A stretch of 64,000 nucleotides of DNA from a virus (Duplodnaviria; Heunggongvirae; Uroviricota; Caudoviricetes): IMG/VR virus record IMGVR_UViG_3300001242_000012. The stretch is one strand, 5' to 3'. A model generated the notes under the pieces. The model was not told where the DNA came from. It made no database searches and was given only the letters and a program-made list of their open reading frames with translations. The first letter of the stretch is position 1. Every line of letters starts with the position of its first letter. Below, in pieces: positions 1,384 to 62,884 of the stretch. The position numbers were made by a program, and so were the translations under genes.

Positions 1384-1661
1384 CTCACTTCATAACCATA
1401 ACTTACCTTAGTTATAGAAGATCTTTTTAAGCCTGGGTAGAACATTATAAGTTCATCATAGATATTATTAACATCCCAATTATCTGGTATGGCTAATATA
1501 TACTCATGCAGATTAAAGCATATTTTGACATAGACAACATTACGTATCTCATTCCCACAATACGGACAGAATTTATAGTCGATATTATTGATTGTTATAG
1601 GTCTCTTACAATTATTACATTCCATATAATACCTCCTATAATATATGGGAAGAGGAATCAC
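1380..1661 (-). CDS. small zinc-ribbon protein
   Basis: CNNC...(16 aa)...CPYC double CxxC pairs; ATGA overlaps on both sides. Confidence 0.45.
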   Translation of the reverse strand: MIPLPIYYRRYYMECNNCKRPITINNIDYKFCPYCGNEIRNVVYVKICFNLHEYILAIPDNWDVNNIYDELIMFYPGLKRSSITKVSYGYEVR

Positions 1662-3040
1662 TTCCTCTTCCTTTTCTGCTTTGTGAGTTTGTCAATAATG
1701 TTTCCGGTAAGACTAGATATTATGGCTTTCTCTTGATCAGTCTTCTCAACAATCTGGTCTGATAATTCTGTCTTAGAATATAGGACTTGTAATATTCGCT
1801 CATCTATGCTGTCTTGTGATATAAGGTTAACTACATTGACAGTCTTAAATTCTGAGCCAATTCTACGTATCCTACCAATTCTTTGCTTCAATGTAGCTGG
1901 ATTCCATGGAAGATCGTAATTTACCAATACTGATGCTATTTGAAGATTAATTCCTGCGTTCCCAGCGTCAGTAGAGACAAAGAACTTCACATCTTTATCA
2001 AACCTAAATCTGTCTATAGCAGCTTGTCTTTCATATGGTTTCATTTTACCATTGAGTACCCTACACCCACCTAGTTTACTAAGTCTTTCAACTATAAGTC
2101 TCTGCATACGCTCAAATTGAGTAAATATGACGGCTTTTAAATCTGGATTATCTTCCAGTTTAAGTTGCATAAGTTCATATAACTCATCTAGCTTAGGAGA
2201 CTTTGTGGATTTAATAGCAAATTTAGACGCCATCCGTGATGTACTCATAGACAGTAGTTGTGGAGAATCACTTACTTCAGTAAGCATTGTGAACATACCA
2301 AGTAGCTGACCTTCTTTAGGATGCGGCTCGTCCTTATCCCATGATTTCATCTCTTCCATGATATCACGTATGACAAGACGTATATCCTCATGTAGGGCTG
2401 CTTGTTCTTTTGTCATAGGGATTGTGAAATTATTAATTAACACAGACGGAAGTTCAGGAGCTACTTCATCAACAAGTCTACGCAGTATATATAGAGAGAT
2501 CCTTCCACGTAATTCATTGAGGTTTTTATATCCCAATATAATGCCACGTCTTCCAAATTTCGTTCCCATGACTATATATCTGTTTCTGAATGATGTCCAA
2601 CTTCCTAATATTTCAGGGTTCATAAATGAGAACAAGCTATACAATTCATCAGGACGGTTCTGCATTGGTGTTCCAGTTAGTAGCCATTTATACTTAGCAT
2701 CCAACTGCATAATCTGTTTAGTTGTTATCGCATCCTTGTTCTTTATCTTATGTGCTTCATCAAGGATTATAACATCTGCATCTAATGCTCTTAATCTGTC
2801 TAAGTCCATATCCTGACGCACTAACTCATAGTTTATTACTGTGAAGATGCTATCGTTCTCTTTATAGATTTTAACTCTATCTCCGAGGTCTCCATCAATT
2901 ACTGTAACACTATAGTTAGTAAACTTTCCAATCTCATCTTCCCACTGATACTTTAGTGATGCAGGGCAAATTACCAATATTCTCTTGGCTAAACCATTAC
3001 AAATAAGATAATCCGCAGCACCTATGGATTGTGGAGTTTT
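1658..3040 (-). CDS. SNF2/Rad54-family helicase, exon 2 (starts in Walker A at ...KT)
   Basis: Frame is open from 3064. Motifs KTPQSIGAADYLI...ILVICPASL, DEAHKIKN (DEAH box), LLTGTPMQNRPDELYSLFSFM (SNF2 motif III), plus a C-terminal helicase domain. The ORF-track start at 2977 is only an internal TTG. Confidence 0.8.
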   Translation of the reverse strand, partial: KTPQSIGAADYLICNGLAKRILVICPASLKYQWEDEIGKFTNYSVTVIDGDLGDRVKIYKENDSIFTVINYELVRQDMDLDRLRALDADVIILDEAHKIKNKDAITTKQIMQLDAKYKWLLTGTPMQNRPDELYSLFSFMNPEILGSWTSFRNRYIVMGTKFGRRGIILGYKNLNELRGRISLYILRRLVDEVAPELPSVLINNFTIPMTKEQAALHEDIRLVIRDIMEEMKSWDKDEPHPKEGQLLGMFTMLTEVSDSPQLLSMSTSRMASKFAIKSTKSPKLDELYELMQLKLEDNPDLKAVIFTQFERMQRLIVERLSKLGGCRVLNGKMKPYERQAAIDRFRFDKDVKFFVSTDAGNAGINLQIASVLVNYDLPWNPATLKQRIGRIRRIGSEFKTVNVVNLISQDSIDERILQVLYSKTELSDQIVEKTDQEKAIISSLTGNIIDKLTKQKRKRK

Positions 3041-3604
3041 CAGTTTTGTTATCGTAGTGGCTTTTTATCCTCTACTTCTGGAGCTTCTTGTTCGCTCCTG
3101 GTGGCTACCACCAGAGCCCATGTAAACTCATGGGAGCTCAGCATAACTTTTTACCATATCATTAAGTGTCTGCTATTCTCGCTTCATCCTCAGCATTATC
3201 TGGTAGGAGCTATATTGGAGATACAATATAGTTTATTAATTTTCATATAGATTCACTACGTCTATACCGTCATTGTGCCATATTTAACTATGTTACTCAT
3301 GGCATCGAGACTGCTGCATCTTGGACTCAATGCAGTTCCATTCATCCTTTGCCAATAGTTTGCAAAGTGGCATTATTCACAGACACAAACTAATTCGCTG
3401 ACTTAGGTAGGGCGGCCTCGTGGACAGATTATCTCACTGTCTATGCGTTGCCCCTGACTAGCTCGGTATAGAGCTATTAACTATGTCACCATAGTCAAGT
3501 AAGTTTCCACTTACGCCTTCGGTTCTGATTAGCATTCTCAGCTTCCCAGCTTAATTCCGCCTCTAGTACTCCTAAGACTTTCATCTTAGGACGGCTCCGA
3601 CCGA
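3041..3604 (-). ncRNA. putative self-splicing intron (group I-like), ORF-less, interrupting the SNF2 Walker A motif
   Basis: Exon 1 ends ...DEMGLG at a U (GGT). The next in-frame codons of exon 2 are AAA ACT (KT). The intervening 564 nt ends in G (omega-G rule) and carries stops in all frames. A P7-like GACAG...CTGTC pairing sits next to an S-element-like GAGATAATCTGTCC. Confidence 0.5.
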
Positions 3605-3961
3605 ACCTAAACCCATTTCATCGCCTAGGAGACCTTTCTTAATATGTACTAAGAAAGAAGCTCCTACTAGCTGGAATGGGTATAAAGCTAGCTTAAGATT
3701 GACATCAATAATTTTTATTGGAGGTGTTTCGGGCTTACTGGGCTCCTTTACTATCTCTTCATATGGAACTTCCCAAGTAAGCTCATCTCCAAAGACTTCG
3801 AGTAACAACCCTGCTTGATTTACAGGGACAAGCCATATACCATCTCGATACTTTCTACCGGGGATGGCTTTTACTGTTTCAATTATATCATAAAAAATCC
3901 TTCCTGATAACCCAGAAATCCTGAGCTCAAGAACATTGCCATTTGGCATCACACGTATCAA
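3605..3961 (-). CDS. SNF2/Rad54-family helicase, exon 1 (N-terminus to ...DEMGLG)
   Basis: LYPFQLVGASFL (SNF2 Q-motif LRPYQ..G..WL analogue) and GLLGDEMGLG, which is the first half of Walker A. The ORF then runs into intron sequence and stops. Confidence 0.75.
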
Positions 3962-4016
3962 TTAGATATCCCCTATTGAATTTTCTCATTACTTCCAGTA
4001 TTAGTTACTAAATCTT

Positions 4017-4877
4017 TTAGCCAGCGGCAGCAGCTTGCTTCTTAATGTATCTTAAGTTCAACTGATCCTTGGTATTGCGTTTTGGATCAAAGCCATTGTT
4101 CTTTACATTGAATGTAACTGCATTGACCCTTAATCCACCCATTTCCTTGTTGTTAAGCAAAACATTGCAGAAGTTGAATATCAACATTGCTGCTGTTGAG
4201 TTAGTTGCCATAGACTGAGGATGGCTAATAGCCCGCTCAGCACAGCTTAATTCTGTGGTAAACTTCGTATTGGTATCATTCATAACATCATGGAAGACAT
4301 CAGTGACACAAGGCATGTAGAATGAATGTGGTTTATTATTACCTTCCTGAAGTGTTCCCTTATGGTTTACTCCCAATACTACCTGGCCATTGTAAAGTTC
4401 GTTGCCGCTGTCAAGATATACCATATTTCTCTCACCGGAATAGAACAGATCGGCTATCAACTGCCTGGTCTTATTATTATCAACTGCACCGATAATTATC
4501 GGATAACAGTTCTTATGTAGATCCATAAGCATCTTCAATGCTGCTTTGGTCTCTACATAAGCATCATGAGCGTTGATTGGTGTTCCGAAGGCATTTGAAT
4601 AACGGGCAGCAAGCACCATAGCCTTACTTTTATTCAGGTCTGGCATAATGAAGTTTTGCCGAGTTAAGTTTTTCTCCTCAACTTTATCCGGATCAGCAAG
4701 AGTTATCATATGCTTTTGGCCTTCCTTACGGGTGTAATTCTTAATACTAATCTGTCTTACAAGATTGGGTACCAAGAATCCACCAGTGCCACCATTACCT
4801 ATGATTATGTAATGATGCGGTGCGTTATTGGTCACCGCATCAAAATCAAGTGCGTAAGTCTTTTCAAGTATAGACAT
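4017..4877 (-). CDS. E1-like ThiF/MoeB-family adenylyltransferase
   Basis: Rossmann motif IIIGNGGTGG and the E1 signature ADPDKVEEKNLTRQ, which matches D.D.VE.SNLNRQ. Confidence 0.7.
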   Translation of the reverse strand: MSILEKTYALDFDAVTNNAPHHYIIIGNGGTGGFLVPNLVRQISIKNYTRKEGQKHMITLADPDKVEEKNLTRQNFIMPDLNKSKAMVLAARYSNAFGTPINAHDAYVETKAALKMLMDLHKNCYPIIIGAVDNNKTRQLIADLFYSGERNMVYLDSGNELYNGQVVLGVNHKGTLQEGNNKPHSFYMPCVTDVFHDVMNDTNTKFTTELSCAERAISHPQSMATNSTAAMLIFNFCNVLLNNKEMGGLRVNAVTFNVKNNGFDPKRNTKDQLNLRYIKKQAAAAG

Positions 4878-4890
4878 AATTACCTCCTTA

Positions 4891-6318
4891 CTATTTTAAG
4901 TGCACATTCTTACAATCTTCGATTGTACAATCGCAACAACGATACTGTAATGTGCATGACATACAAAAGGTGTAATGTGGACAATCCGGTCCATCACAGC
5001 TTTCGACAGTTTTTGCAGCCTCAAGATTTTTCTTAGCTGCAAAATCTAAAATAGGCTGACATTCTTTAATTCTATCACATTCGCAACACTTACCGCTGCA
5101 TACTTCACACAGGCTTGCGAGCTCACAGGTGTAACAATTTTCAAGATCTTGTTGAGGCTTAAACATATTCGGATTTTCGTTGATATACTTAATGCCTTTT
5201 TCAACTGGACTCACTACATCTCTCCCAGAGAACATTGCTGTCAATATCAACTGGGAGAGAGATATATCGTCAAAGTTTTTCACAACAAAATCAATGATAT
5301 TCTTTACTCGACTCTGATTGGGCACATCCGCTCTGTGTTCGGGTCCAGACAATACATTTGTTTGCAGTCTGTGCACGTCTGCTCCGTCAGTTTTTTTTTC
5401 CGAATTTGTTTCTGCGTCTGTCCCGGCCCCGTGAAAATACCATTTTTTTTGAGGAATGGCTTCAGTAGTTGCGCCAGCACCAAAAGTAGTTACTTTACCG
5501 TTATTACCATAGGTTAGATAATCTCTTCCACCTTGCCAACCAACTACTGTGGGCTTTTTTAGCTTCGTCATCCACTCTTCCGGGAAGCTAACTTTCGGGA
5601 ATATACCCATTACCTCAGGTACCTGAAGTAAATACTTTTGGTTAGCTACATTCATAGCAATCTCAGGTTTCTCTACGATTTCCCATATGGGGATATTAAC
5701 TTGCTGACCAGCACACGCATAACGTGTGAGGTAAGTTGGGCTAGTAGTGATAGTACCAAATACCATGTAGCACTGAGCTGCATTTTCATTGGCATTGTCA
5801 GTACCAGACCAGAAAGCTCCCATAGTATGATGGCTGTGGATTTCCATTACAGGAACTTTATCAAGGCGTAAGCGATTTACTTCCGGATCTTCATGGAACT
5901 CTGAAAGTCCACCAGAGTTTTTCTGTTCAGGGATGTAAATGAAATGCTCTTTTGTGTCCTGATCCCAGAAGATTAGAGCAGACGCTTCGGTTTTGTCCTT
6001 CTCATGAACAGCTATAAAGAAGTTCAGGATCTGGCAAATCATATGAAACGGAATCTTAGGAATGGACAGATTCAAGCCTAACTTAAGTTTTTGTAAGCCG
6101 GGAACAGTCTCCGGTATCATTACAAAGTCACCCATTCCAGTGTGCCGTACCATCTTTGTACCATCCGCAGTCATGATGTAGTTAACAGCCTTGGTAAGAC
6201 CTTCTGCAGGAACATCAATAAGATAATCAGCAGCTTGTCTGATTAATGCAGCCTTACTTGCAGCCTTTTGTGCTTCTTTCTCTCTAACCTGAGCTTCCAG
6301 CTCATCTTTTAATGACAT
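4891..6318 (-). CDS. JAB/JAMM (MPN+) metallopeptidase with Cys-rich C-terminal zinc-binding region
   Basis: An upstream Glu (TKEHFIYIPEQ) followed by MEIHSHHTMGAFWSGTD, i.e. H-x-H-x7-S-xx-D. The C-terminal ~90 aa carry more than 20 Cys in CxxC-like clusters. Confidence 0.75.
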   Translation of the reverse strand: MSLKDELEAQVREKEAQKAASKAALIRQAADYLIDVPAEGLTKAVNYIMTADGTKMVRHTGMGDFVMIPETVPGLQKLKLGLNLSIPKIPFHMICQILNFFIAVHEKDKTEASALIFWDQDTKEHFIYIPEQKNSGGLSEFHEDPEVNRLRLDKVPVMEIHSHHTMGAFWSGTDNANENAAQCYMVFGTITTSPTYLTRYACAGQQVNIPIWEIVEKPEIAMNVANQKYLLQVPEVMGIFPKVSFPEEWMTKLKKPTVVGWQGGRDYLTYGNNGKVTTFGAGATTEAIPQKKWYFHGAGTDAETNSEKKTDGADVHRLQTNVLSGPEHRADVPNQSRVKNIIDFVVKNFDDISLSQLILTAMFSGRDVVSPVEKGIKYINENPNMFKPQQDLENCYTCELASLCEVCSGKCCECDRIKECQPILDFAAKKNLEAAKTVESCDGPDCPHYTFCMSCTLQYRCCDCTIEDCKNVHLK

Positions 6319-7037
6319 TATCTCAATTCTCCTTCCAAATTTTGAATTATGCTTGCTACAGACCTTAACGGTTTAAGGATTTCATACGGGAATGTAGCAA
6401 CACCATCAAGATGTTTAATTAGGCTATGAACCCTGTCAACCCTTACTGTCCTGCCATTAGGTGTTTGCACAGCCAACGGATAGAAGTTACTGTTCTCAAG
6501 GTGCGCATTAAAATTTGAGCTAAAGAATTGCTCAACGAACCCAGATATACCGGCAAGATTCCTCCATTGTTTTGCTGTGCTATGTCCACCCCAACATATA
6601 TTAGCATCGTCCTGAACATTGGTGAATGGGAAGCGACACAATGTATCTGTTGTAATGAGTATTGGACCCTTAGCAGCATATACATGGCTTAATCTTAACA
6701 TATATTCTCCATTTTGATGTTGATTAAGAATAAATATAAATACACAGCTAGGTACAAGCACATTCTTGTAAACTCCTACAGAGCCTTCATCCTGATAACT
6801 AATACGCCTTCTAGTTTCAGGTATCTGATATACTATCAAAGTGCTAGCGTTTTTCTTAATCATCCTCACAACTCCGTGAGGAGAAGGCATGATACCTGTA
6901 TCATGCCGAAAGTCATTGGCAACTGCTTGAGCAAGGCCATCCGGTGAAATTTGCCTTGTTTTAGAAATCCCATTTTCATCATGTTCAATTAATCTCACGC
7001 TATCTGCGTGAATCTCTAATACAGCCCGTGGTTTCAT
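6318..7037 (-). CDS. candidate E2-like (UBC-fold) protein
   Basis: RFPFTNVQDDANICWGG resembles the E2 HPN...ICL catalytic region. It sits between the JAB and E1 genes. Assignment is weak. Confidence 0.3.
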   Translation of the reverse strand: MKPRAVLEIHADSVRLIEHDENGISKTRQISPDGLAQAVANDFRHDTGIMPSPHGVVRMIKKNASTLIVYQIPETRRRISYQDEGSVGVYKNVLVPSCVFIFILNQHQNGEYMLRLSHVYAAKGPILITTDTLCRFPFTNVQDDANICWGGHSTAKQWRNLAGISGFVEQFFSSNFNAHLENSNFYPLAVQTPNGRTVRVDRVHSLIKHLDGVATFPYEILKPLRSVASIIQNLEGELR

Positions 7038-8221
7038 TAGCTTTCCTCCCCTACATCTGCTATTACGGATGGATTTTCATAAACCATTACCTTCGTTATA
7101 TCAAAACCTAATCCAGTCATGTTTATGAGTTCCACAGCAGACTCATAGTTCTTAAACGGGAACTCCCTTTTCTTTTCATCAACTACTACAAAGCTCCCGT
7201 TCTTCTTGTAGTAAAATCCTGGTTCATTGTTCTTCACTTCATTTTCGTAAAGGTTTTTGAGTGGCATCCAATGTTCTTCGTTGAAGTTACAGTGGAGTTT
7301 ACTATTAGTTTTTACAACAGTATCATGTCGTGGATCAGGCTCGGTTAATATAATTTCAATCCTATCCACTCCAAGGTGTTGACGATAACCTGCCGGAATA
7401 TCAAGCTCTACTTCAGGAGGATAGATATAATAATCTCTATTCCTTAGATTGGGGCCAGTTTTTACTATGATTCTAACGGTGTCTCCTATTTGCACCCATT
7501 TCCTGATTGTTGATAATCTGGTATCTGCTGTAGCAGTTTTGCCAGTATTCTTTGCTAACACTTGGTTCAATCTTTCTTGCATTGTCATAGTTTTAGTGCT
7601 AAGTTGATCTATAAGTGAGTTTATCAACGTTTTTGGTTCAGGAGTCGGGATAGGTTGAATCCTAACAGCTTCAACTATTTGTGTCTTCTTGCGTTCAGCT
7701 ATTTCACGCTGCATTTTTTGCAATTCAGCAAGCTTATCTTTCTTCTTTTGTATGAACGCTTGGATGTCACCGCTTAATTCGTCATGACATTGCTTAAGTT
7801 TGTCTAGCACAACACCCATATTCATAACTCCTGCCAATGAGTTGGATAAGACGCGCTGATGACGAAGATACATAGAGTCTAAGTCCAATGGGATATAAAT
7901 GTATCTCTTCCCATTGCGGATTCTTGTATCATGGAATCCACTTATAGCTATGTTTAGCTCCAATAGAACATGTGCAATTCTTGGTGATGGGAACTTATAA
8001 ATATGAATAGAGTCCTCCAACATCTTAATCATGTCAAAGATTTCTCCTTCAAATCTTATAGAGAAATCATTGTCATTTTGACGGACATAACATCCTGGTA
8101 TTAATGATATGATTAATTCCTTACTTAGCTTTTTGATAAGTGTACTGAATTCTGCGATATCAATTGGAATTTCAATATTCTCAGCAAACTTCTCAATACC
8201 TTTCTGTCTGCCAATTTTCAC
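7037..8221 (-). CDS. hypothetical protein (394 aa) inside the Ubl-system operon
   Basis: Intact ORF; the central coiled-coil-like K/E/Q-rich segment has no catalytic motif. Confidence 0.5.
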   Translation of the reverse strand: MKIGRQKGIEKFAENIEIPIDIAEFSTLIKKLSKELIISLIPGCYVRQNDNDFSIRFEGEIFDMIKMLEDSIHIYKFPSPRIAHVLLELNIAISGFHDTRIRNGKRYIYIPLDLDSMYLRHQRVLSNSLAGVMNMGVVLDKLKQCHDELSGDIQAFIQKKKDKLAELQKMQREIAERKKTQIVEAVRIQPIPTPEPKTLINSLIDQLSTKTMTMQERLNQVLAKNTGKTATADTRLSTIRKWVQIGDTVRIIVKTGPNLRNRDYYIYPPEVELDIPAGYRQHLGVDRIEIILTEPDPRHDTVVKTNSKLHCNFNEEHWMPLKNLYENEVKNNEPGFYYKKNGSFVVVDEKKREFPFKNYESAVELINMTGLGFDITKVMVYENPSVIADVGEES

Positions 8222-8284
8222 AAGTTCTATGAAGTCAGCACGACGTAGGATTTCTACAGAAGTATTAATTTCTGTTCCTCCTTT

Positions 8285-8542
8285 CTATATATAGTCTGAG
8301 CTTGCCACAATAGCAGGGATTCTTTTGATCTTTTCGACAAGTTCTGATATTTGATTTATGACTACAGGCTGTCGGTTTACTACTTCTTTATGAGCTTTGA
8401 GTATGTCGTCTAAGGGCACTTTCATTAAATCATTGGCATTTGTAGCATTAATTACTTTATCAACTACTATCCTTACCTCAATAGGTAAATAATCGTAGTT
8501 GGGCAGATGAAGTAAGTTTTTAGCTAAGTTTTCAGTTGACAT
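8285..8542 (-). CDS. hypothetical protein (85 aa)
   Basis: Intact small ORF between the Ubl-like gene and the 394-aa gene. Confidence 0.4.
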   Translation of the reverse strand: MSTENLAKNLLHLPNYDYLPIEVRIVVDKVINATNANDLMKVPLDDILKAHKEVVNRQPVVINQISELVEKIKRIPAIVASSDYI

Positions 8543-8603
8543 ATAAACACCACCGTAACATATTTACCTGTTAATGGTGGGCAAAAGCCCACCATAACTA
8601 GAC

Positions 8604-8984
8604 TTAACCACGCAGCTTAGCGATGGCTTGCAAGAAGCGAGAGAAGAGACCTTTGGTACCAGCTTTAACTTCAAACTTAACAATCTCGCCTTCTTGGGTT
8701 GGAGTAGCATTTTGAAGTTCAGGGAAGATCTCAGCCATGGATTCCTTGATCTGAGCCAGGGTCATTGTGTCATCCTCAATAACGAGGTTGTTGCCTGCGT
8801 ATTGAACTGTACGAGTACCTTTGGTACCAGCCTTAACCTCGAATTTGATGATCTCGCCTTCTTGGGTTGGAGTAGCATTTTGCAGCTCCGGAAAAATTTC
8901 AGCCATAGACTCTTTAATTTGAGCCAGGGACATAGTGTCATCTTCGATTACCAAATTGTTACCTGCATACTGAACTGTTCTCAC
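8604..8984 (-). CDS. tandem-duplicated small beta-grasp/ubiquitin-like candidate (2 x ~56 aa)
   Basis: Two near-identical repeats of TRTVQYAGNNLVIEDDTM(S/T)LAQIKESMAEIFPELQNATPTQEGEI(I/V)KFEVKAGTKG. The DNA copies differ at many synonymous sites. Genomic context is E1/E2/JAB. Confidence 0.45.
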   Translation of the reverse strand: MRTVQYAGNNLVIEDDTMSLAQIKESMAEIFPELQNATPTQEGEIIKFEVKAGTKGTRTVQYAGNNLVIEDDTMTLAQIKESMAEIFPELQNATPTQEGEIVKFEVKAGTKGLFSRFLQAIAKLRG

Positions 8985-9067
8985 TTAAACATTCCTCCAA
9001 ATTTTTAAATTAGCTGGTTCCCACCTTCCAGCTTTATCCCGACCATTGCGGTCCTACCTCTGCTTTA

Positions 9068-9946
9068 TTACTTAAGACAAGCTTGCTTAACAGCATTTGC
9101 CATATCTTCAAGTGTAGGAGTCAGAAACATTTTGGTTGCTTTGCCTTCATAGGCATTCTCATAATGTTTATATTCGTATTCATCAGGATTGAATATATAC
9201 AGACTCTTACTCTTTCTTCTTACTTCCTCAACAAGTCCAGGTGCTTCTTCTGAACCACGTGTATCGAGGTCAGACATGATAAATACAACAGTTTGAGGAG
9301 ACAATTTATTATGATAATCTTTTAATAGCTTTTTAAGGGCTTTGGGCAAATCAGTTCCACCGCCCCATTGTTGTCTTCTTTCGAGATTAGTCAATGTCTC
9401 TCTCCAGTCAGTCCTAATATCCTTGGTTACATATTCGAGCTTATTTGAAAATATAAATAGCTCAAACTTAGAGATCTCCTGACCGACTGCCTGACAAATT
9501 AAAGTCAATGTTTTAGCATGTCGATCCATTGAGCCTGACGTATCTAAAAGTACTAGTAGTCTAGGCTTATGAATTTTTTTAACCTTCCAGCTGATCTGAA
9601 TTGGTATACCACCAGTAGACTTTGCATTGTTTATAGTCTTACGGAAATTGATCATAGCCATTTTCTTACTTTCCTTGCGATGACGAGACATTGCTGTAAT
9701 GATCTGTCTGGCAATTTTCCGCATATTTCTACGTGCCTTAAGTACCTCGTCTTCATGTATATTAGGTCTCGTAAGATTGCCATCACTTTTTCCTGCTCCA
9801 GGTTGCCCAGGTTGTCCAGGTGGGCCTTCCGGCCCATCCTCATCACCTGGTTTACTTTGTACCTGCGACTGCTGTTGCTGGTTGGTATTTGTCATCCAGT
9901 TCCAAAAGTCTAGGTGGGCGTCTCTTACGCCCGCTCCAACAGCCAT
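9068..9946 (-). CDS. von Willebrand factor A (vWA) domain protein
   Basis: MIDAS motif LLVLLDTSGSMD (DxSxS) and an N-terminal Gly/Pro-rich collagen-like stretch. Its start overlaps the AAA+ gene. Confidence 0.75.
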   Translation of the reverse strand: MAVGAGVRDAHLDFWNWMTNTNQQQQSQVQSKPGDEDGPEGPPGQPGQPGAGKSDGNLTRPNIHEDEVLKARRNMRKIARQIITAMSRHRKESKKMAMINFRKTINNAKSTGGIPIQISWKVKKIHKPRLLVLLDTSGSMDRHAKTLTLICQAVGQEISKFELFIFSNKLEYVTKDIRTDWRETLTNLERRQQWGGGTDLPKALKKLLKDYHNKLSPQTVVFIMSDLDTRGSEEAPGLVEEVRRKSKSLYIFNPDEYEYKHYENAYEGKATKMFLTPTLEDMANAVKQACLK

Positions 9947-12752: not shown

Positions 12753-13535
12753 CTAGTATATTTCATTGTACTCTTCATCTCCTATATCAAGATGGCTATT
12801 TCTTTCCTTGTCTAGTAGGTATTCAAGGAGTGAGATGCCACTCTTAAAACCATTTATAGGGATATTGAAGAATCTCATTAACTCAAATACTTCATATAGT
12901 ATACCAGTATTTTCAGCATTTTGTAACTGATTAGTAAGAGTAATCTGGTTTAATTTTTTATTAACCATAGCTTCTTTAATTGCTTTTACTGTACTATTAC
13001 AAGGTTTCAAGTTACAGGTTACTATGAATCTACAAGCCCTTAACACTATGTTGGTTGTTGGATTTTTTTCCTCCCTTAATCTTAGAATTCTTGTTTCAAG
13101 ATCAAGCCATGTTTGAGGGCAGGCTATTAATCTTCCATCAGGGAATAAAGCCACCTCATTAATTGTAAAGTCAAATCTAGGTGGGTATGGCAGTAATGTA
13201 TTACATGGTACCCAATCAATAGGTATTTCAATCCCGTGGAATAAAAGGTATTGTATCGTTTTATTCCTAACCTGCTCATAACGGATTTGATTATTTCTTA
13301 TTATATAACTATCTAGAAGTGATCGTTCATAATAACAAATATCAATATCACGAGGGTTACCATCAAGAATTAAGTCTCTGATGTAACCACCGACTATTGA
13401 GTATGGATCTCCGTTTGGCAATGAGTACAGATTAAGAAGATTTATAACAATTCTAAGTTCATTTGGGATAGTAAAGCTTACATCACGTATGGATACCATT
13501 ATGGTACACCTCCAAGAGTTCACGTCTAGTATCAC
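12753..13535 (-). CDS. nucleotidyltransferase, CCA-adding/poly(A)-polymerase head-domain-like
   Basis: GGYIRDLILDGNPRDIDICY matches the polbeta-NTase head motif GGxVRDxLLGxxPxDxD of tRNA nucleotidyltransferases. Confidence 0.55.
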   Translation of the reverse strand: MILDVNSWRCTIMVSIRDVSFTIPNELRIVINLLNLYSLPNGDPYSIVGGYIRDLILDGNPRDIDICYYERSLLDSYIIRNNQIRYEQVRNKTIQYLLFHGIEIPIDWVPCNTLLPYPPRFDFTINEVALFPDGRLIACPQTWLDLETRILRLREEKNPTTNIVLRACRFIVTCNLKPCNSTVKAIKEAMVNKKLNQITLTNQLQNAENTGILYEVFELMRFFNIPINGFKSGISLLEYLLDKERNSHLDIGDEEYNEIY

Positions 13536-30307: not shown

Positions 30308-31056
30308 ATGGTGGACGTAGGGGGAGTTGAACCCCCGTCCGGAACTGTTACCCTAAACCGTCTACCTAGAATAGACCATCGTGGTCAACGGCAGCACTAA
30401 GTAGCTTGCTCACTTTCATCACTGGGTAGGAGTCGAACCTACAAACTGTAATAACAGCCACGCTTCAGCGTGTAACCTCTGGGTGGACACCCGTAAGCTC
30501 ACTTAGTTACATATAGAGCCGACGTGTCGCTTTGCCAATTTGCCACCAGTGATATTTATTAACCTCCACCACTTGCATTTAGGATGCAAGAAACTATTTG
30601 CCATAGAGTAGGGATTTTAACCCTACATGGACTGAATTTCGGCCACCTACCACCATATTATCATTAGCGACTCCTTAATGGGTTAGGGTTGCACTAATGT
30701 ATGCGAGGCCAGTTTCTAATACTCTACCAGGTTGTCTTCAGAGAACGACCCATAGTTCTCCTACGTACCTTACTAGTCAGTCCTAAACCGGAAAGAGCGA
30801 TTGCTTTCGCCTTCTATGACCTATTGCCTATCTGTAGCCCTTCCGAACTACTGTTTCCGATAGGACTCTCCCATTCTTTGACCCTCATCCGATTGCTGGG
30901 ATAAGCTCGGTGTTTTGGGGCTGATCTCCCAGCTCTAAAGTTAATTAGAGACTAGGCAGCTTGAAGAGTAGTTTTGGCATTTAAAGCCTTGTGGTTATAT
31001 GGTAACCAACCTCTAGGCAAGTTTTACTCTCACGCTCCGTCGAAACCCGGTACGCC
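30308..31056 (-). ncRNA. ssrA: tmRNA-like (SsrA-like) gene, unusually long (~750 nt)
   Basis: Minus-strand 5' end GGGCGUA-CC-GGGUUUCGACGG matches the tmRNA TLD signature (compare B. subtilis GGGGACGUUACGGAUUCGACAGGG). The 3' end CGGACGGGGGUUCAACUCCCCC-UACGUCC-ACCA gives a T-arm plus an acceptor strand complementary to the 5' GGGCGUA with one G-U, then an encoded CCA. An in-frame tag-like ORF sits about 70 nt from the 5' end: GCC AAA ACU ACU CUU CAA GCU GCC UAG = AKTTLQAA*, close to B. subtilis ...GGCAAAACUAAC...GCUGCCUAA. Confidence 0.5.
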
Positions 31057-32583: not shown

Positions 32584-33120
32584 CTATTGTACTGTTACCT
32601 TCACTTCATCATTAGTCATTTTGATAGTGAAGAGAGTGTCACCAACTCTAAATGACACCGGATCAGTACCAATTGTAGTTGTTATGGTAGCCTTTACAGG
32701 TTTACTTGATACAGGAGTACTTTGTGTAACTTTCTTATCGGATTCAACCTGAAGCTGTGTCTTAACTACAGCCTTATCTGTATACTTCTTAATTAGGCTT
32801 TTGAACATGCCTTTCTTAATGTAATGATCGGCAAGTTTTTTCATCCTTATCGAAGAATACCCAAGTTCTATTCCTAGATTTGAAATAACACTATCGGGTA
32901 GTGGACACCCATACTCAGATATTGCACTTTTGAGACCTTTGATAATGGATGGGACCAGGTGTTTACGATAAGCCATTACCATACTTTGGCTCGTCCTACC
33001 ACTGATTACATTCTTTGCAAAGGTAACACTGACTGGATGAGTCGGCATAAGATTTAATGCATTCTTTAAAGCATTAATCTCTGTATCCTTCCAGTTATTA
33101 ATTAACATCTTAGCGCTCAA
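32584..33120 (-). CDS. hypothetical protein
   Basis: 178-aa ORF. Confidence 0.4.
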   Translation of the reverse strand: MSAKMLINNWKDTEINALKNALNLMPTHPVSVTFAKNVISGRTSQSMVMAYRKHLVPSIIKGLKSAISEYGCPLPDSVISNLGIELGYSSIRMKKLADHYIKKGMFKSLIKKYTDKAVVKTQLQVESDKKVTQSTPVSSKPVKATITTTIGTDPVSFRVGDTLFTIKMTNDEVKVTVQ

Positions 33121-62539: not shown

Positions 62540-62884
62540 GTGGAGAATTTATATAATATGTACATCACTCAAGAACTGAGTACTTACGAGATAGGTGCTA
62601 CCCTTGGCGAGTACAGTACTACGGTGCAAAGGAAGTTGAAGAGACTTGGTATACCACTACGGAGCAGGTCTGAATGTCATAAGACCAGTAGTGAACTAGA
62701 TAGGATTAGTGGTCGTAGGAAGTATGTGATTGGTGATAAGGTTGGGATGTTAACCATACTTGGTGACTATGGTCATAATGATCGTGGAGAGCTACTATAT
62801 CTGTGTCGCTGCGAATGTGGGAAGGAATTGAAGGTCAGAGCTAATAAGATTCCTAAGTCATGTGGGTGTAGAAGAAAAATTTAG
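62540..62884 (+). CDS. HTH DNA-binding protein with C-terminal Cys cluster
   Basis: LSTYEIGATLGEYSTTVQRKLKRLGI helix-turn-helix, then CRCECG...CGC. First plus-strand gene after the strand switch. Confidence 0.5.
   Translation: MENLYNMYITQELSTYEIGATLGEYSTTVQRKLKRLGIPLRSRSECHKTSSELDRISGRRKYVIGDKVGMLTILGDYGHNDRGELLYLCRCECGKELKVRANKIPKSCGCRRKI

What the first reader, a model, noticed from the sequence alone, without database searches (positions are those of the whole stretch)
3041..3604. ORF-less group I-like intron splitting the Walker A (GLG|KT) motif of a phage SNF2 helicase
The helicase is encoded as two ORFs. Exon 1 ends exactly at DEMGLG, in a U, and exon 2 resumes with KTPQSIGA... about 564 nt downstream. 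The intervening sequence ends in G, has stops in all frames, and contains P7-like and S-element-like segments (GACAG...GAGATAATCTGTCC). Introns in phage genes usually sit in conserved catalytic motifs of DNA metabolism genes, and this one interrupts the ATP-binding P-loop of a chromatin-remodeller-type helicase. No homing endonuclease is encoded; the only internal plus-strand ORF (3029..3250) has no nuclease motifs.
Basis: seen in the sequence. Interest (0 to 1): 0.7.

Follow-up and report, generated by a model that had tools for sequence, protein, structure and literature searches.

The report
Group I intron splitting helicase P-loop
A 564-base self-splicing-type (group I) intron with no gene of its own interrupts the ATP-binding motif of a phage SNF2 helicase gene; it is a real but fairly ordinary member of a very common phage intron lineage that the standard RNA database (Rfam) fails to detect.

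Summary
On the minus strand the helicase reads ...DEMGLG (last base U, window 3605), then 564 nt with stops in every frame ending in G (3604-3041), then KTPQSIGA... (from 3040). The joined protein matches the SNF2 domain continuously.

Rfam finds nothing here (E<=1), although it detects the T4 td control. Comparative analysis still shows a group I intron. More than 170 viral loci carry the same element. A 60-sequence alignment that excludes the window supports P3, P4, P5, P6a, P7 (bulge next to a G-C pair), P7.1, P8, P9 and P9.1: 93% paired, 42 of 55 pairs compensatory. A covariance model built from it hits the window at 77 bits (P3-P3') and 42 bits (P8'-3' end). All 54 family-invariant bases are kept.

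A 46%-identical helicase (L175) has the same intron at the same codon boundary, with a LAGLIDADG gene in the P1 loop. Bacillus phage KLEB27-3 has the uninterrupted gene.

The window's copy is ORF-less, with a 250-nt non-coding insert in P8.

Verdict: new member of a known kind, modest interest. Splicing itself is untested.

The parts
3605..3961 (-). Exon 1 of the SNF2 helicase gene (119 codons, ends ...GDEMGLG; last base is U at 3605)
   Evidence: ORF list and translation; aligns with the N-termini of the KLEB27-3 and L175 helicases
3041..3604 (-). Group I intron, 564 nt, ORF-less; intron position i = 3605 minus window coordinate; omega-G at 3041
   Evidence: folds better than shuffles, z=-3.8
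3593..3607 (-). P1: exon GGU (3607-3605) plus intron UC (3604-3603) paired with GAGCC (3597-3593); U(-1).G10 wobble at the 5' splice site; 5-nt loop. Short (3 exon pairs)
   Evidence: By analogy with L175, where GGU|AGUU pairs with AACUGCC; P1 with U.G covaries across the family. Inferred, not statistically tested for this copy
3571..3590 (-). P2 hairpin CCUAAGAU-GAAA-GUCUUAGG with a GAAA tetraloop (3582-3579)
   Evidence: Predicted in the MFE and centroid folds; a GAAA-capped P2 co-occurs with the P8 receptor motif in 5/5 family members against 9/102
3557..3561 (-). P3 5' strand GGCGG (pairs with 3415-3411)
   Evidence: CM alignment; all 6 P3 pairs covary in the family, 98.6% paired
3525..3556 (-). 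J3/4 AAUUAAG (3556-3550), P4 CUGG/UCAG (3549-3546 with 3528-3525), J4/5 GA, short P5 AGC/GCU (3543-3541 with 3533-3531), J5/4 AA
   Evidence: CM alignment; P4 and P5 pairs covary (helix 2)
3453..3522 (-). P6 (CC 3522-3521 with GG 3454-3453) and P6a (GGC 3517-3515 with GUC 3458-3456), enclosing a 56-nt three-hairpin insert (3514-3459)
   Evidence: CM alignment with a 56-nt insertion; the three hairpins appear in the MFE and centroid folds; P6a covaries in the family, while P6 proper is invariant and so untestable
3442..3448 (-). P7 5' strand A-[C bulge]-GCAUA; G at 3446 pairs with C at 3141 and is the predicted guanosine-binding pair next to the bulge
   Evidence: P7 outer pair A-U 32 / G-C 28 and inner pair A-U 57 / G-C 3 in the family, 100% paired (helix 6); geometry compared with the Tetrahymena C262-G312 / A263 bulge / G264-C311 from memory
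3423..3441 (-).
   Evidence: 4 of 5 pairs covary, 100% paired (helix 7); lies between P7 and P3', as the extra helices of subgroup IA do
3411..3415 (-). P3 3' strand CCGCC; forms a pseudoknot with P7
3152..3409 (-). P8: base UACC (3409-3406) with GGUA (3155-3152), 11-nt-receptor-like CCUAAG (3407-3402) / UAUGG (3158-3154), and a ~250-nt non-coding insert (3405-3156)
   Evidence: P8 base covaries in the family (helix 8). The insert has no similarity to anything in 170+ related loci, no Pfam hit and stops in all frames, and a modest folding z of -2.1
3140..3151 (-). J8/7 AAAAGU (3151-3146) and P7 3' strand UAUGCU (3145-3140)
   Evidence: Second CM hit; invariant family positions retained
3078..3139 (-). 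P9 domain: base CU/AG (3136-3135 with 3079-3078) enclosing three hairpins (55-nt insert relative to the single hairpin of compact relatives)
   Evidence: CM alignment; hairpins in the MFE fold; P9 covaries in the family (helix 9)
3041..3075 (-). Terminal hairpin P9.1 GUAGAGG-AUAAAAAG-CCACUAC (3075-3054) and 3' tail GAUAACAAAACUG ending in omega-G (3041)
   Evidence: 35 nt identical to Staphylococcus phage ROSA intron DNA; the stem covaries (helices 10-11); same tail as the L175 intron
1658..3040 (-). Exon 2 of the SNF2 helicase gene (KTPQSIGA... to the stop codon)

Best explanation
Window 3604-3041 (minus strand) is a group I intron of the subgroup-IA type. It belongs to a large lineage that is spread through phages of Bacillota and beyond.

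The primary transcript of the SNF2 helicase gene folds into the canonical core: P1 with a U.G wobble at the 5' splice site, the P4-P6 domain, the P3-P8/P7 pseudoknot with a bulge-adjacent G-C pair as the guanosine pocket, an A-rich J8/7, and a terminal omega-G. By inference, an exogenous guanosine attacks after U3605. The freed 3'-OH of exon 1 then attacks after G3041, joining GGUUUAGGU to AAAACUCCA and restoring the Walker A motif DEMGLGKT. Without splicing, neither ORF can make an ATPase: exon 1 lacks K-T and everything downstream, and exon 2 lacks the P-loop glycines.

This copy has no homing endonuclease gene. A relative at the identical site (L175) carries a LAGLIDADG gene in its P1 loop. 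The window's intron is therefore most likely a descendant of an endonuclease-driven invasion of the conserved P-loop-coding DNA that has lost (or never had) its ORF. It has since acquired non-coding expansions in P6 (56 nt), P8 (~250 nt) and P9 (55 nt).

Shown here: the gene architecture, homology to the family, covariation-supported family structure, retention of every invariant core base, the same-site relative, and the intron-less homolog. Inferred: actual splicing, the guanosine-pocket assignment, the L2-GAAA/P8-receptor contact, and the evolutionary history of ORF loss.
For: (1) Junction: exon 1 ends in U, the intron ends in G, and exact codon-phase joining gives DEMGLG|KT. The spliced protein matches SNF2-rel_dom continuously and aligns without a gap to the uninterrupted KLEB27-3 helicase (ADEMGLGKSLQSIGA) and to spliced L175.
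(2) Family: the 3' 35 nt are identical to intron DNA in Staphylococcus phages. Two conserved blocks retrieve 52 and more than 120 viral loci.
(3) Structure: on 60 relatives (window excluded), 93.2% of cells are paired against 31-41% with slid partners. 42 of 55 pairs show compensatory changes, the covariation score is 0.55 against <=0.115, and 0 of 500 shuffles reach it. P3 and P7 cross as a pseudoknot.
(4) Independent recognition: model R1, built without the window, hits 3561-3411 at 77.3 bits and 3200-3048 at 42.1 bits, collinear.
(5) Integrity: 54/54 invariant and 30/33 near-invariant family positions are retained. The whole intron folds at z=-3.8.
(6) Same site: the L175 helicase (46% identity) is split at the same codon boundary by a full-length family member (185.5 bits) with a LAGLIDADG_3 ORF and the same 3' tail GAUAACAAAACUG|AAAAC.
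(7) P1 with U.G covaries among members (AGCUGCU/GGCAGCU, ACCGCU/GGCGGU, CGACACU/GGUGUCG, CAUGGU/GCCAUG, GUUGGU/GCCAAC, UUCGGU/GCCGAA).
(8) The L2 GAAA tetraloop and the P8 CCUAAG/UAUGG receptor co-occur.
(9) Published work states that the Rfam and GISSD models under-detect phage group I introns (PMC11878797).
Against: Rfam 15 gives no group I hit, even at E<=1, in the window or in 14 relatives, while T4 td scores 40.3 bits.

P1 is weak in this copy: only 3 exon base pairs plus 2 intron pairs. An alternative bulged pairing of the exon with GUCCUAAG (intron 13-20) competes with P2. No convincing P10 was found.

The large P8 insert (250 nt) is only marginally structured (z=-2.1) and could impair folding.

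The P6 proper pairs and most P7 pairs are invariant, so covariation cannot test them. Model E-values come from a shortened calibration and are rough. The alignment structure was derived by eye from these same sequences, which favours it over the slid controls. No RNA data exist; splicing is inferred.
Confidence: 0.88

Rival explanations
1. It is a group I intron by descent but no longer splices. On this view the P6/P8/P9 expansions and the weak P1 have killed the ribozyme, and the helicase gene is a pseudogene or is expressed as two non-functional fragments.
For: P1 has only 3 exon pairs. A 250-nt poorly structured insert sits in P8 (z=-2.1). No endonuclease or maturase is encoded here.
Against: All 54 invariant core positions are intact. 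Both exons are open, in phase and full length, with every helicase motif present. The tertiary-contact motifs L2-GAAA and the P8 receptor are retained. The same-site relative L175 uses the same 3-bp exon pairing. Neutral decay would not be expected to spare every invariant base while leaving both 119- and 460-codon exons open.
Confidence: 0.08
2. The two ORFs are separate genes and the 564 nt is an intergenic region or an unrelated mobile insertion that is never removed.
For: Gene callers would annotate two ORFs. Exon 2 has a possible TTG start at 2977.
Against: No homolog shows stand-alone halves. The phage, viral-contig and genome relatives span residues 119/120 in one piece or carry the same intron (L175). 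A product starting at 2977 lacks the Walker A lysine. The spacer is a recognisable ribozyme family.
Confidence: 0.02
3. It is another kind of intervening element: a group II intron, an intein, a translational bypass (hop) element, or recoded sequence.
For: The length is a multiple of 3 (564 = 188 codons), which at first sight allows an in-frame element.
Against: All three stop codons occur in frame. The sequence starts UCGGU rather than GUGYG and ends CUG rather than AY, and it hits no group II model at E<=1. A 564-nt bypass has no precedent (T4 gene 60 skips 50 nt; from memory). The group I core is demonstrably present.
Confidence: 0.01

Closest known systems
Phage group I introns of subgroup IA (T4 td, nrdB and nrdD/sunY; Staphylococcus phage Twort orf142; Bacillus phage SPO1 DNA polymerase; Bastillevirinae introns, PMC11878797)
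   Same: Same overall topology: P1 U.G, P3-P8/P7 pseudoknot, an extra helix between P7 and P3', an A-rich J8/7 ending ..AUAUGC (compare ..AUAUAGUC), a terminal hairpin followed by GAUAACA..G (compare T4 td CUGAACAUAAUG and Twort CGUAACAUAAUUG), and omega-G. It is inserted in a catalytic motif of a DNA-metabolism gene. Relatives carry HNH or LAGLIDADG homing endonuclease ORFs in peripheral loops.
   Different: There is no detectable similarity to Rfam RF00028, whereas td scores 40 bits. Only one hairpin (P7.1) lies between P7 and P3', and its loop mimics J8/7. It has its own invariant blocks (GAACCGAAGGC, GUCAGGGGCA, GGAUAAAAAGCC). The host gene (SNF2 helicase) and the site (Walker A G|K) did not turn up in three full-text literature searches or in the Bastillevirinae paper.
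The same-site intron in viral contig IMGVR_UViG_3300012943_000237 (L175)
   Same: Same host gene family (46% identical helicase), the identical insertion point DEMGLG|KT, the same P1 design (GGU + GCC), the same 3' tail, 75% core identity, and the L2-GAAA/P8-receptor pair.
   Different: L175 has a compact core (204 nt from P3 to the 3' end) and a 250-aa LAGLIDADG ORF in the P1 loop. The window's copy has a 5-nt P1 loop, no ORF, and expansions in P6, P8 and P9.
Unannotated HNH-carrying intron of Staphylococcus phage ROSA / IME1365_01 (Phietavirus) in an HK97-gp10-like tail gene
   Same: 35 nt of the 3' end are identical. It has the same P7 (GCGUAC/GUACGC variant), P7.1, P8, P9 and P9.1 layout.
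   Different: Different host gene; an HNH ORF lies in the 5' half; GenBank annotates the exons as separate or absent CDSs and shows no intron.
Inteins in P-loops of helicases and ATPases (for example DnaB, MCM, terminase inteins; PMC4760082)
   Same: A selfish element parked in the most conserved ATP-binding motif of a replication-type ATPase. The logic is the same: the site cannot mutate to escape the homing endonuclease.
   Different: Inteins are removed at the protein level and need an open frame. This element is closed in all frames and has a ribozyme core.

Membership tests
Group I intron | 5' splice site follows a U that forms a U.G wobble with the internal guide sequence in P1 | tested here: met
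   The exon ends ..GGU (3605). U(-1).G10, G(-2)-C11, G(-3)-C12, extended by U1-A9 and C2-G8. It has the same design as L175. P1/U.G covaries in at least 6 relatives. Weak in this copy (3 exon pairs).
Group I intron | Intron ends in guanosine (omega-G) | tested here: met
   G at window 3041. Family members also end ..AACA(N2-5)G before the exon.
Group I intron | Conserved core topology: P3 and P7 form a pseudoknot enclosing P4-P6 and P8 | tested here: met
   P3 has 6/6 pairs compensatory. P7 is 100% paired with 2 covarying pairs and crosses P3. P4, P5, P6a and P8 covary. The window sequence fits all of them.
Group I intron | Guanosine-binding G-C pair in P7 next to a bulged nucleotide | tested here: inconclusive
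   The sequence pattern A157-U465 / bulged C158 / G159-C464 matches the canonical arrangement. The outer pair covaries (AU 32 / GC 28), but the G-C pair is invariant and its function cannot be tested in silico.
Group I intron | Match to the curated covariance model (Rfam RF00028 Intron_gpI) | tested here: not met
   No hit at E<=1 in the window or in 14 relatives. The T4 td positive control scores 40.3 bits, E=4e-8. This is a property of the model's seed rather than a defining biological feature (PMC11878797).
Group I intron | Guanosine-initiated two-step transesterification (self-splicing or protein-assisted) | not testable with these tools
   Needs RT-PCR or in vitro splicing.
Group I intron, subgroup IA | Extra helices P7.1/P7.2 between P7 and P3' | tested here: inconclusive
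   One covarying hairpin (P7.1, helix 7) sits at that position, and some relatives have a nested second hairpin in its loop. No GISSD subgroup models were available, so IA1/IA2/IA3 cannot be assigned.
Mobile (homing) group I intron | Encodes a homing endonuclease | tested here: not met
   No ORF, no Pfam, tblastx or tblastn signal in the intron, and no endonuclease homolog of four tested types in the 64-kb window. Relatives do encode LAGLIDADG or HNH enzymes.
Group II intron | GUGYG 5' end, AY 3' end, domain V | tested here: not met
   Starts UCGGU, ends CUG, and hits no Rfam group II model at E<=1.
Intein | Uninterrupted in-frame coding sequence | tested here: not met
   Eleven in-frame stops of all three kinds.

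The most novel reading that the evidence does not exclude
This intron lineage may have a specific affinity for the Gly|Lys junction (GGU|AAR) of P-loop/Walker A coding DNA. The same family sits at G|KT in two SNF2 helicases (the window and L175), at GSTGCG|KT in ClpX-type AAA+ ATPase genes of other phages (L154, L170, L140), and at TGG|KEQ in a terminase (L069), always with a GCC guide pairing to GGU. If this reflects guide-RNA-directed ectopic insertion (reverse splicing with a 3-nt guide plus intron-internal P1 extension) rather than independent endonuclease specificities, the Walker A motif would be a general landing pad. That would let one ribozyme lineage hop between unrelated ATPase genes. 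A smaller add-on is that the 250-nt P8 insert might be a functional peripheral domain rather than debris.
Probability: 0.2. Interest if true: 0.55.

Novelty: new member of a known kind. Interest (0 to 1): 0.3.

Why it matters
For annotation: the helicase should be called as one spliced gene rather than two hypothetical ORFs, and the same holds for hundreds of phage genes interrupted by this lineage. None of the GenBank phage records inspected annotates it as an intron.

For tools: a very abundant phage group I lineage is invisible to Rfam RF00028 even at E<=1. The 60-sequence alignment and model made here could seed a new model.

For biology: it adds the SNF2 Walker A motif to the list of catalytic motifs colonised by phage introns. 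Together with L175 it gives a natural pair, with and without the endonuclease ORF, at one site. It also hints at recurrent use of GGU|AAR P-loop junctions. None of this changes the established picture of group I intron biology.

Tried and rejected
- **Rfam scans.** Permissive thresholds on the region, on the whole window and on 14 relatives found no group I or group II hit. The T4 td control showed the method works, so the negative result reflects model coverage.
- **Intein or recoding.** Considered because 564 is divisible by 3; rejected because all three stop types occur in frame.
Rejected: the segment is a local covarying hairpin with a 9-nt loop and cannot enclose P3' and P8.
- **Decayed endonuclease gene in the P8 insert.** blastn and tblastx against all fetched loci, Pfam on the three sense frames, and Pfam on the opposite-strand 73-aa ORF found nothing.
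- **Trans-acting endonuclease in the window.** tblastn with LAGLIDADG, HNH, GIY-YIG and NUMOD4-HNH queries found nothing significant; the best was E=0.017 at 62732-62869.
- **More introns of this family in the window.** R1 gave only weak hits at 32785-32883 (16 bits, inside an intact 178-aa ORF) and 13236-13334 (9 bits). Both were judged chance.
- **Close relatives of the phage.** The phage collection (megablast), viral contigs and bacterial genomes gave nothing closer than 46% protein identity, so no near-identical intron-minus allele was found.
- **P10 pairing.** Looked for one; none was convincing.
- **Not used.** The metagenome scan, structure prediction and large protein searches were not used because they would not change the verdict.
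Full report
**What is in the sequence.** The finding lies on the minus strand. Reading that strand, an ORF (3961..3581) ends ...KKGLLGDEMGLG and then runs 7 more codons into a stop. 564 nt later the frame reopens with KTPQSIGAADYLICNGLAKRILVICPASLKYQWEDE... and continues to 1658. The last exon 1 base (3605) is U, and the last base of the intervening sequence (3041) is G. The 564 nt equal 188 codons, but the in-frame translation contains TGA, TAG and TAA, and the other frames are closed too. An intein or a recoded stretch is therefore excluded. Joining the two parts gives a 579-aa protein whose SNF2-related domain match is one uninterrupted stretch, 107-380, across the junction at residues 119/120 (E=7e-44; Helicase_C follows). 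G+C rises to 0.46-0.48 inside the 5' half of the spacer, against about 0.36-0.40 around it.

**Rfam says no, and why that is not decisive.** cmscan of 2500-4200 at E<=1 gave no match to any of 4227 families, and neither did the whole window at gathering or E<=0.5 thresholds. As a positive control I fetched the T4 td locus. RF00028 finds it at 40.3 bits, E=4e-8, despite the I-TevI ORF. So this element really is outside what the Rfam model recognises. A 2025 study of Bacillus-phage introns makes the same point about Rfam and GISSD coverage of phage introns (PMC11878797).

**A large family.** Megablast found a 35-nt perfect match between the 3' end of the spacer and unannotated DNA in Staphylococcus phages ROSA, Rosita and IME1365_01. 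There the match lies about 190 nt after an HNH endonuclease gene and immediately before the continuation (YVEYGTG...) of an HK97-gp10-like tail gene whose first half ends ...GADYA. This is a classic endonuclease-bearing intron, not annotated as such. A sensitive blastn found the same 3' block in 52 phage records (Staphylococcus, Clostridium, Bacillus, Streptococcus and others), often inside terminase or tape-measure genes. Compact, ORF-less members about 245 nt long match the window's spacer collinearly in five blocks.

**The family has group I architecture.** In compact members the exon end pairs with an internal guide so that the last exon base, U, faces a G. This P1 covaries: AGCUGCU/GGCAGCU, ACCGCU/GGCGGU, CGACACU/GGUGUCG, CAUGGU/GCCAUG, GUUGGU/GCCAAC, UUCGGU/GCCGAA.

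I aligned 60 non-redundant compact members from P3 to the 3' end, leaving the window out. I then wrote a structure with P3, P4, P5/P5a, P6/P6a, P7 (crossing P3), a hairpin between P7 and P3' (P7.1), P8, P9 and a terminal hairpin (P9.1). Counting pairs gave the following:
- 93.2% of cells are standard pairs, against 31-41% when the 3' partners are slid by 1-3 columns.
- 42 of 55 pairs have compensatory double changes.
- The covariation score is 0.55, against <=0.115 for the slid controls, and 0 of 500 shuffles reach any of the five measures.
- All six P3 pairs covary.
- In P7, the pair outside a bulged nucleotide is A-U in 32 sequences and G-C in 28. An inner pair switches A-U to G-C in three. 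The rest are invariant.

A bulge next to a conserved G-C pair in P7 is the canonical guanosine pocket; that comparison is from my own knowledge of the Tetrahymena and Azoarcus introns. One caveat applies: I derived the structure by eye from these sequences, which by itself favours it over the slid controls. The number of compensatory pairs is much less sensitive to that.

**The window's copy belongs to the family and is intact.** A covariance model built from that alignment (R1) hits the window twice on the minus strand, collinearly. The first hit is 3561-3411 (77.3 bits, E=1.7e-17, model positions 7-122, P3 to P3', with a 56-nt insertion in P6a). The second is 3200-3048 (42.1 bits, E=8.4e-9); its meaningful part is P8', J8/7, P7', P9 with a 55-nt insertion, P9.1 and the tail. 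The E-values are rough because calibration was shortened. After trimming the three peripheral insertions and adding the sequence to the alignment, the window's intron carries the family residue at 54 of 54 invariant columns and 30 of 33 near-invariant columns. The complete 564 nt fold at -165.8 kcal/mol, z=-3.8, with no shuffle as good.

**Anatomy in window coordinates (intron position = 3605 minus coordinate).**
- P1: exon GGU (3607-3605) plus UC, paired with GAGCC (3597-3593).
- P2: 3590-3571, with a GAAA loop.
- P3: 3561-3557 with 3415-3411.
- J3/4: AAUUAAG.
- P4: 3549-3546 with 3528-3525.
- P5: a minimal helix (AGC/GCU).
- P6/P6a: 3522-3453, enclosing three extra hairpins.
- P7: 3448-3442 (C3447 bulged) with 3145-3140.
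- P7.1: 3441-3423.
- P8: base 3409-3406 with 3155-3152, with an insert of about 250 nt.
- J8/7: AAAAGU, 3151-3146.
- P9: a three-hairpin domain, 3139-3078.
- P9.1: 3075-3054.
- Tail: GAUAACAAAACUG, ending at 3041.

S-element-like" string GACAG..GAGAUAAUCUGUCC is the P7.1 hairpin. Its loop, UGA(AAA)GAUAUAAU in most relatives, looks like a copy of J8/7, which explains the misreading.

**Same site in a relative, empty site in another.** The closest helicase in IMG/VR (L175, 46% identity) matched only from query residue 120 onward. Upstream lie an exon 1 ORF ending ...GDEMGLG, a 250-aa ORF with LAGLIDADG_3 (E=8e-9) and an N-terminal HTH, and then a full-length compact family core (185.5 bits, E=2e-44) that ends GAUAACAAAACUG|AAAACGCC. 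In L175, P1 is GGU|AGUU paired with AACUGCC, and the endonuclease ORF occupies the P1 loop. In the window the equivalent loop is 5 nt. Bacillus phage vB_BauM_KLEB27-3 (45% identity over residues 1-570, a single tblastn piece) has the uninterrupted motif ADEMGLGKSLQSIGA. All more distant relatives in bacterial genomes also span the junction.

**ORF-less status and the inserts.** The 250-nt P8 insert has no blastn or tblastx similarity to any of the fetched loci or to the rest of the window, and no Pfam signal in any sense frame. It folds only modestly better than shuffles (z=-2.1, 5 of 200). Relatives do place endonuclease ORFs in P8, in the P7.1 loop, in P1 and in P9, so the insert may be the last trace of one, but nothing shows this. 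No homolog of four endonuclease types is encoded elsewhere in the window.

The base of P8 keeps a CCUAAG/UAUGG motif, the 11-nt GAAA-tetraloop receptor, and P2 is capped by GAAA. Among 107 distinct family members the receptor motif occurs in five, all with a GAAA-capped P2, against 9 of 102 without it (Fisher p=2e-5; the members may be related, so this is only indicative). That pattern argues that the tertiary architecture is maintained in this copy.

**Mechanism.** The most likely reading (confidence about 0.88 for a group I intron, somewhat less for efficient splicing) is standard guanosine-initiated splicing that restores DEMGLGKT. The intron sits in the least mutable DNA of the gene, as homing-endonuclease logic predicts. 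The main rival is a dead intron or pseudogene (about 0.08). It is disfavoured by the perfect retention of invariant bases and by two long open exons.

**Weak points.**
- P1 has only three exon pairs, and there is a competing bulged pairing of the exon with intron 13-20, which is also the 5' strand of P2.
- No P10 was found.
- There is no RNA evidence.

**Comparison and novelty.** This is a subgroup-IA-like phage intron, comparable to T4 td/nrdB/nrdD, Twort, SPO1 and the Bastillevirinae introns. It differs in that it lacks detectable similarity to RF00028, has a single J8/7-mimicking P7.1 hairpin, and has its own invariant blocks. My three full-text literature searches turned up no group I intron in an SNF2 helicase or at a Walker A site in phage. 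[quoted passage not shown] I therefore rate it a new member of a known kind, interest about 0.3.

**A side observation that raises the ceiling slightly.** The same family splits ClpX-type ATPase genes at GSTGCG|KT (L154, L170, L140; GGT|AAGACT or GGT|AAAACA) and a terminase at TGG|KEQ (L069), all at GGU|AAR with a GCC guide. The window's nearest core relative (L164, 80%) sits in yet another gene, a terminase. Whether the Gly|Lys P-loop junction is a preferred landing site needs a systematic count.

Noticed in passing
window 4017-7037 (minus strand), immediately upstream of the helicase gene: Three consecutive genes encode a ThiF/E1-like protein (4017-4877, E=5e-12), a 475-aa protein with a prokaryotic JAB/MPN domain and a Cys-rich C-terminus (4891-6318), and a Prok-E2_D ubiquitin-conjugating-like protein (6318-7037, E=9e-15). 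A 394-aa protein with no Pfam match lies just upstream of them (7037-8221). This is a complete E1-E2-JAB ubiquitin-like conjugation set in what looks like a large phage of Bacillota.
   Followed up: partly
window 30309-30366 (minus strand): Sub-threshold Rfam match to tmRNA (RF00023): 29.6 bits, E=3.8e-8, gathering score 47, over only 58 nt. ARAGORN finds no tmRNA or tRNA anywhere in the window. It could be a tRNA-like or tmRNA-end fragment, for example an attachment-site remnant.
   Followed up: no
L001 1302-2733 (Staphylococcus phage ROSA, NC_007058 6604-8035); the same in IME1365_01 (L002): An HK97-gp10-like tail gene is split (...GADYA | YVEYGTG...) by an intron of this family carrying an HNH endonuclease gene. 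The record annotates 'ORF049' and the HNH gene, but neither the intron nor the second exon.
   Followed up: partly
L154, L170, L140 (IMG/VR contigs); L069: The same intron family splits ClpX-type AAA+ ATPase genes exactly at the Walker A Gly|Lys junction (GSTGCG|KT). It also splits a large-terminase gene at TGG|KEQ. In every case the exon ends GGU and the next exon starts AAR, as in the window.
   Followed up: partly
H52: Bacillus phage vB_BceM_WH1 (LC597490) 6297-9195: The homolog of this helicase is annotated as two DEAD/DEAH helicase CDSs (gp015, gp017) separated by a 'recombinase family protein' gene (gp016). This is a different kind of interruption of the same gene family.
   Followed up: no
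L004, L044, L049, L050, L053 (IMG/VR contigs): In these loci an ORF runs right into the conserved 3' hairpin, with its stop codon being the TAG of GAAGUAGAGG. The sequence after GAUAACA continues differently (for example GGGCAACCGCCC), so the conserved 3' block may travel with an endonuclease cassette or belong to a differently organised intron.
   Followed up: no
H65: Bacillus phage vB_BauM_KLEB27-3 (OM634661) 93633-93782; H66-H75: blastn with the L175 core finds unannotated copies of this intron family in KLEB27-3 (at a locus other than its intact helicase), in the crAss-like phage cr6_1, in Listeria phage LIS04, and in jumbo phages of Yersinia (phiR1-37), Klebsiella and Raoultella. The family therefore extends beyond phages of Gram-positive hosts, and none of these records labels it as an intron.
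   Followed up: no
window 32785-32883 and 13236-13334 (minus strand): Weak hits of the family model R1 (16 bits, E=0.024; 9 bits, E=1.3). The first lies inside an intact 178-aa ORF (32584-33120). Both were judged chance matches to the A-rich 3' part of the model.
   Followed up: partly
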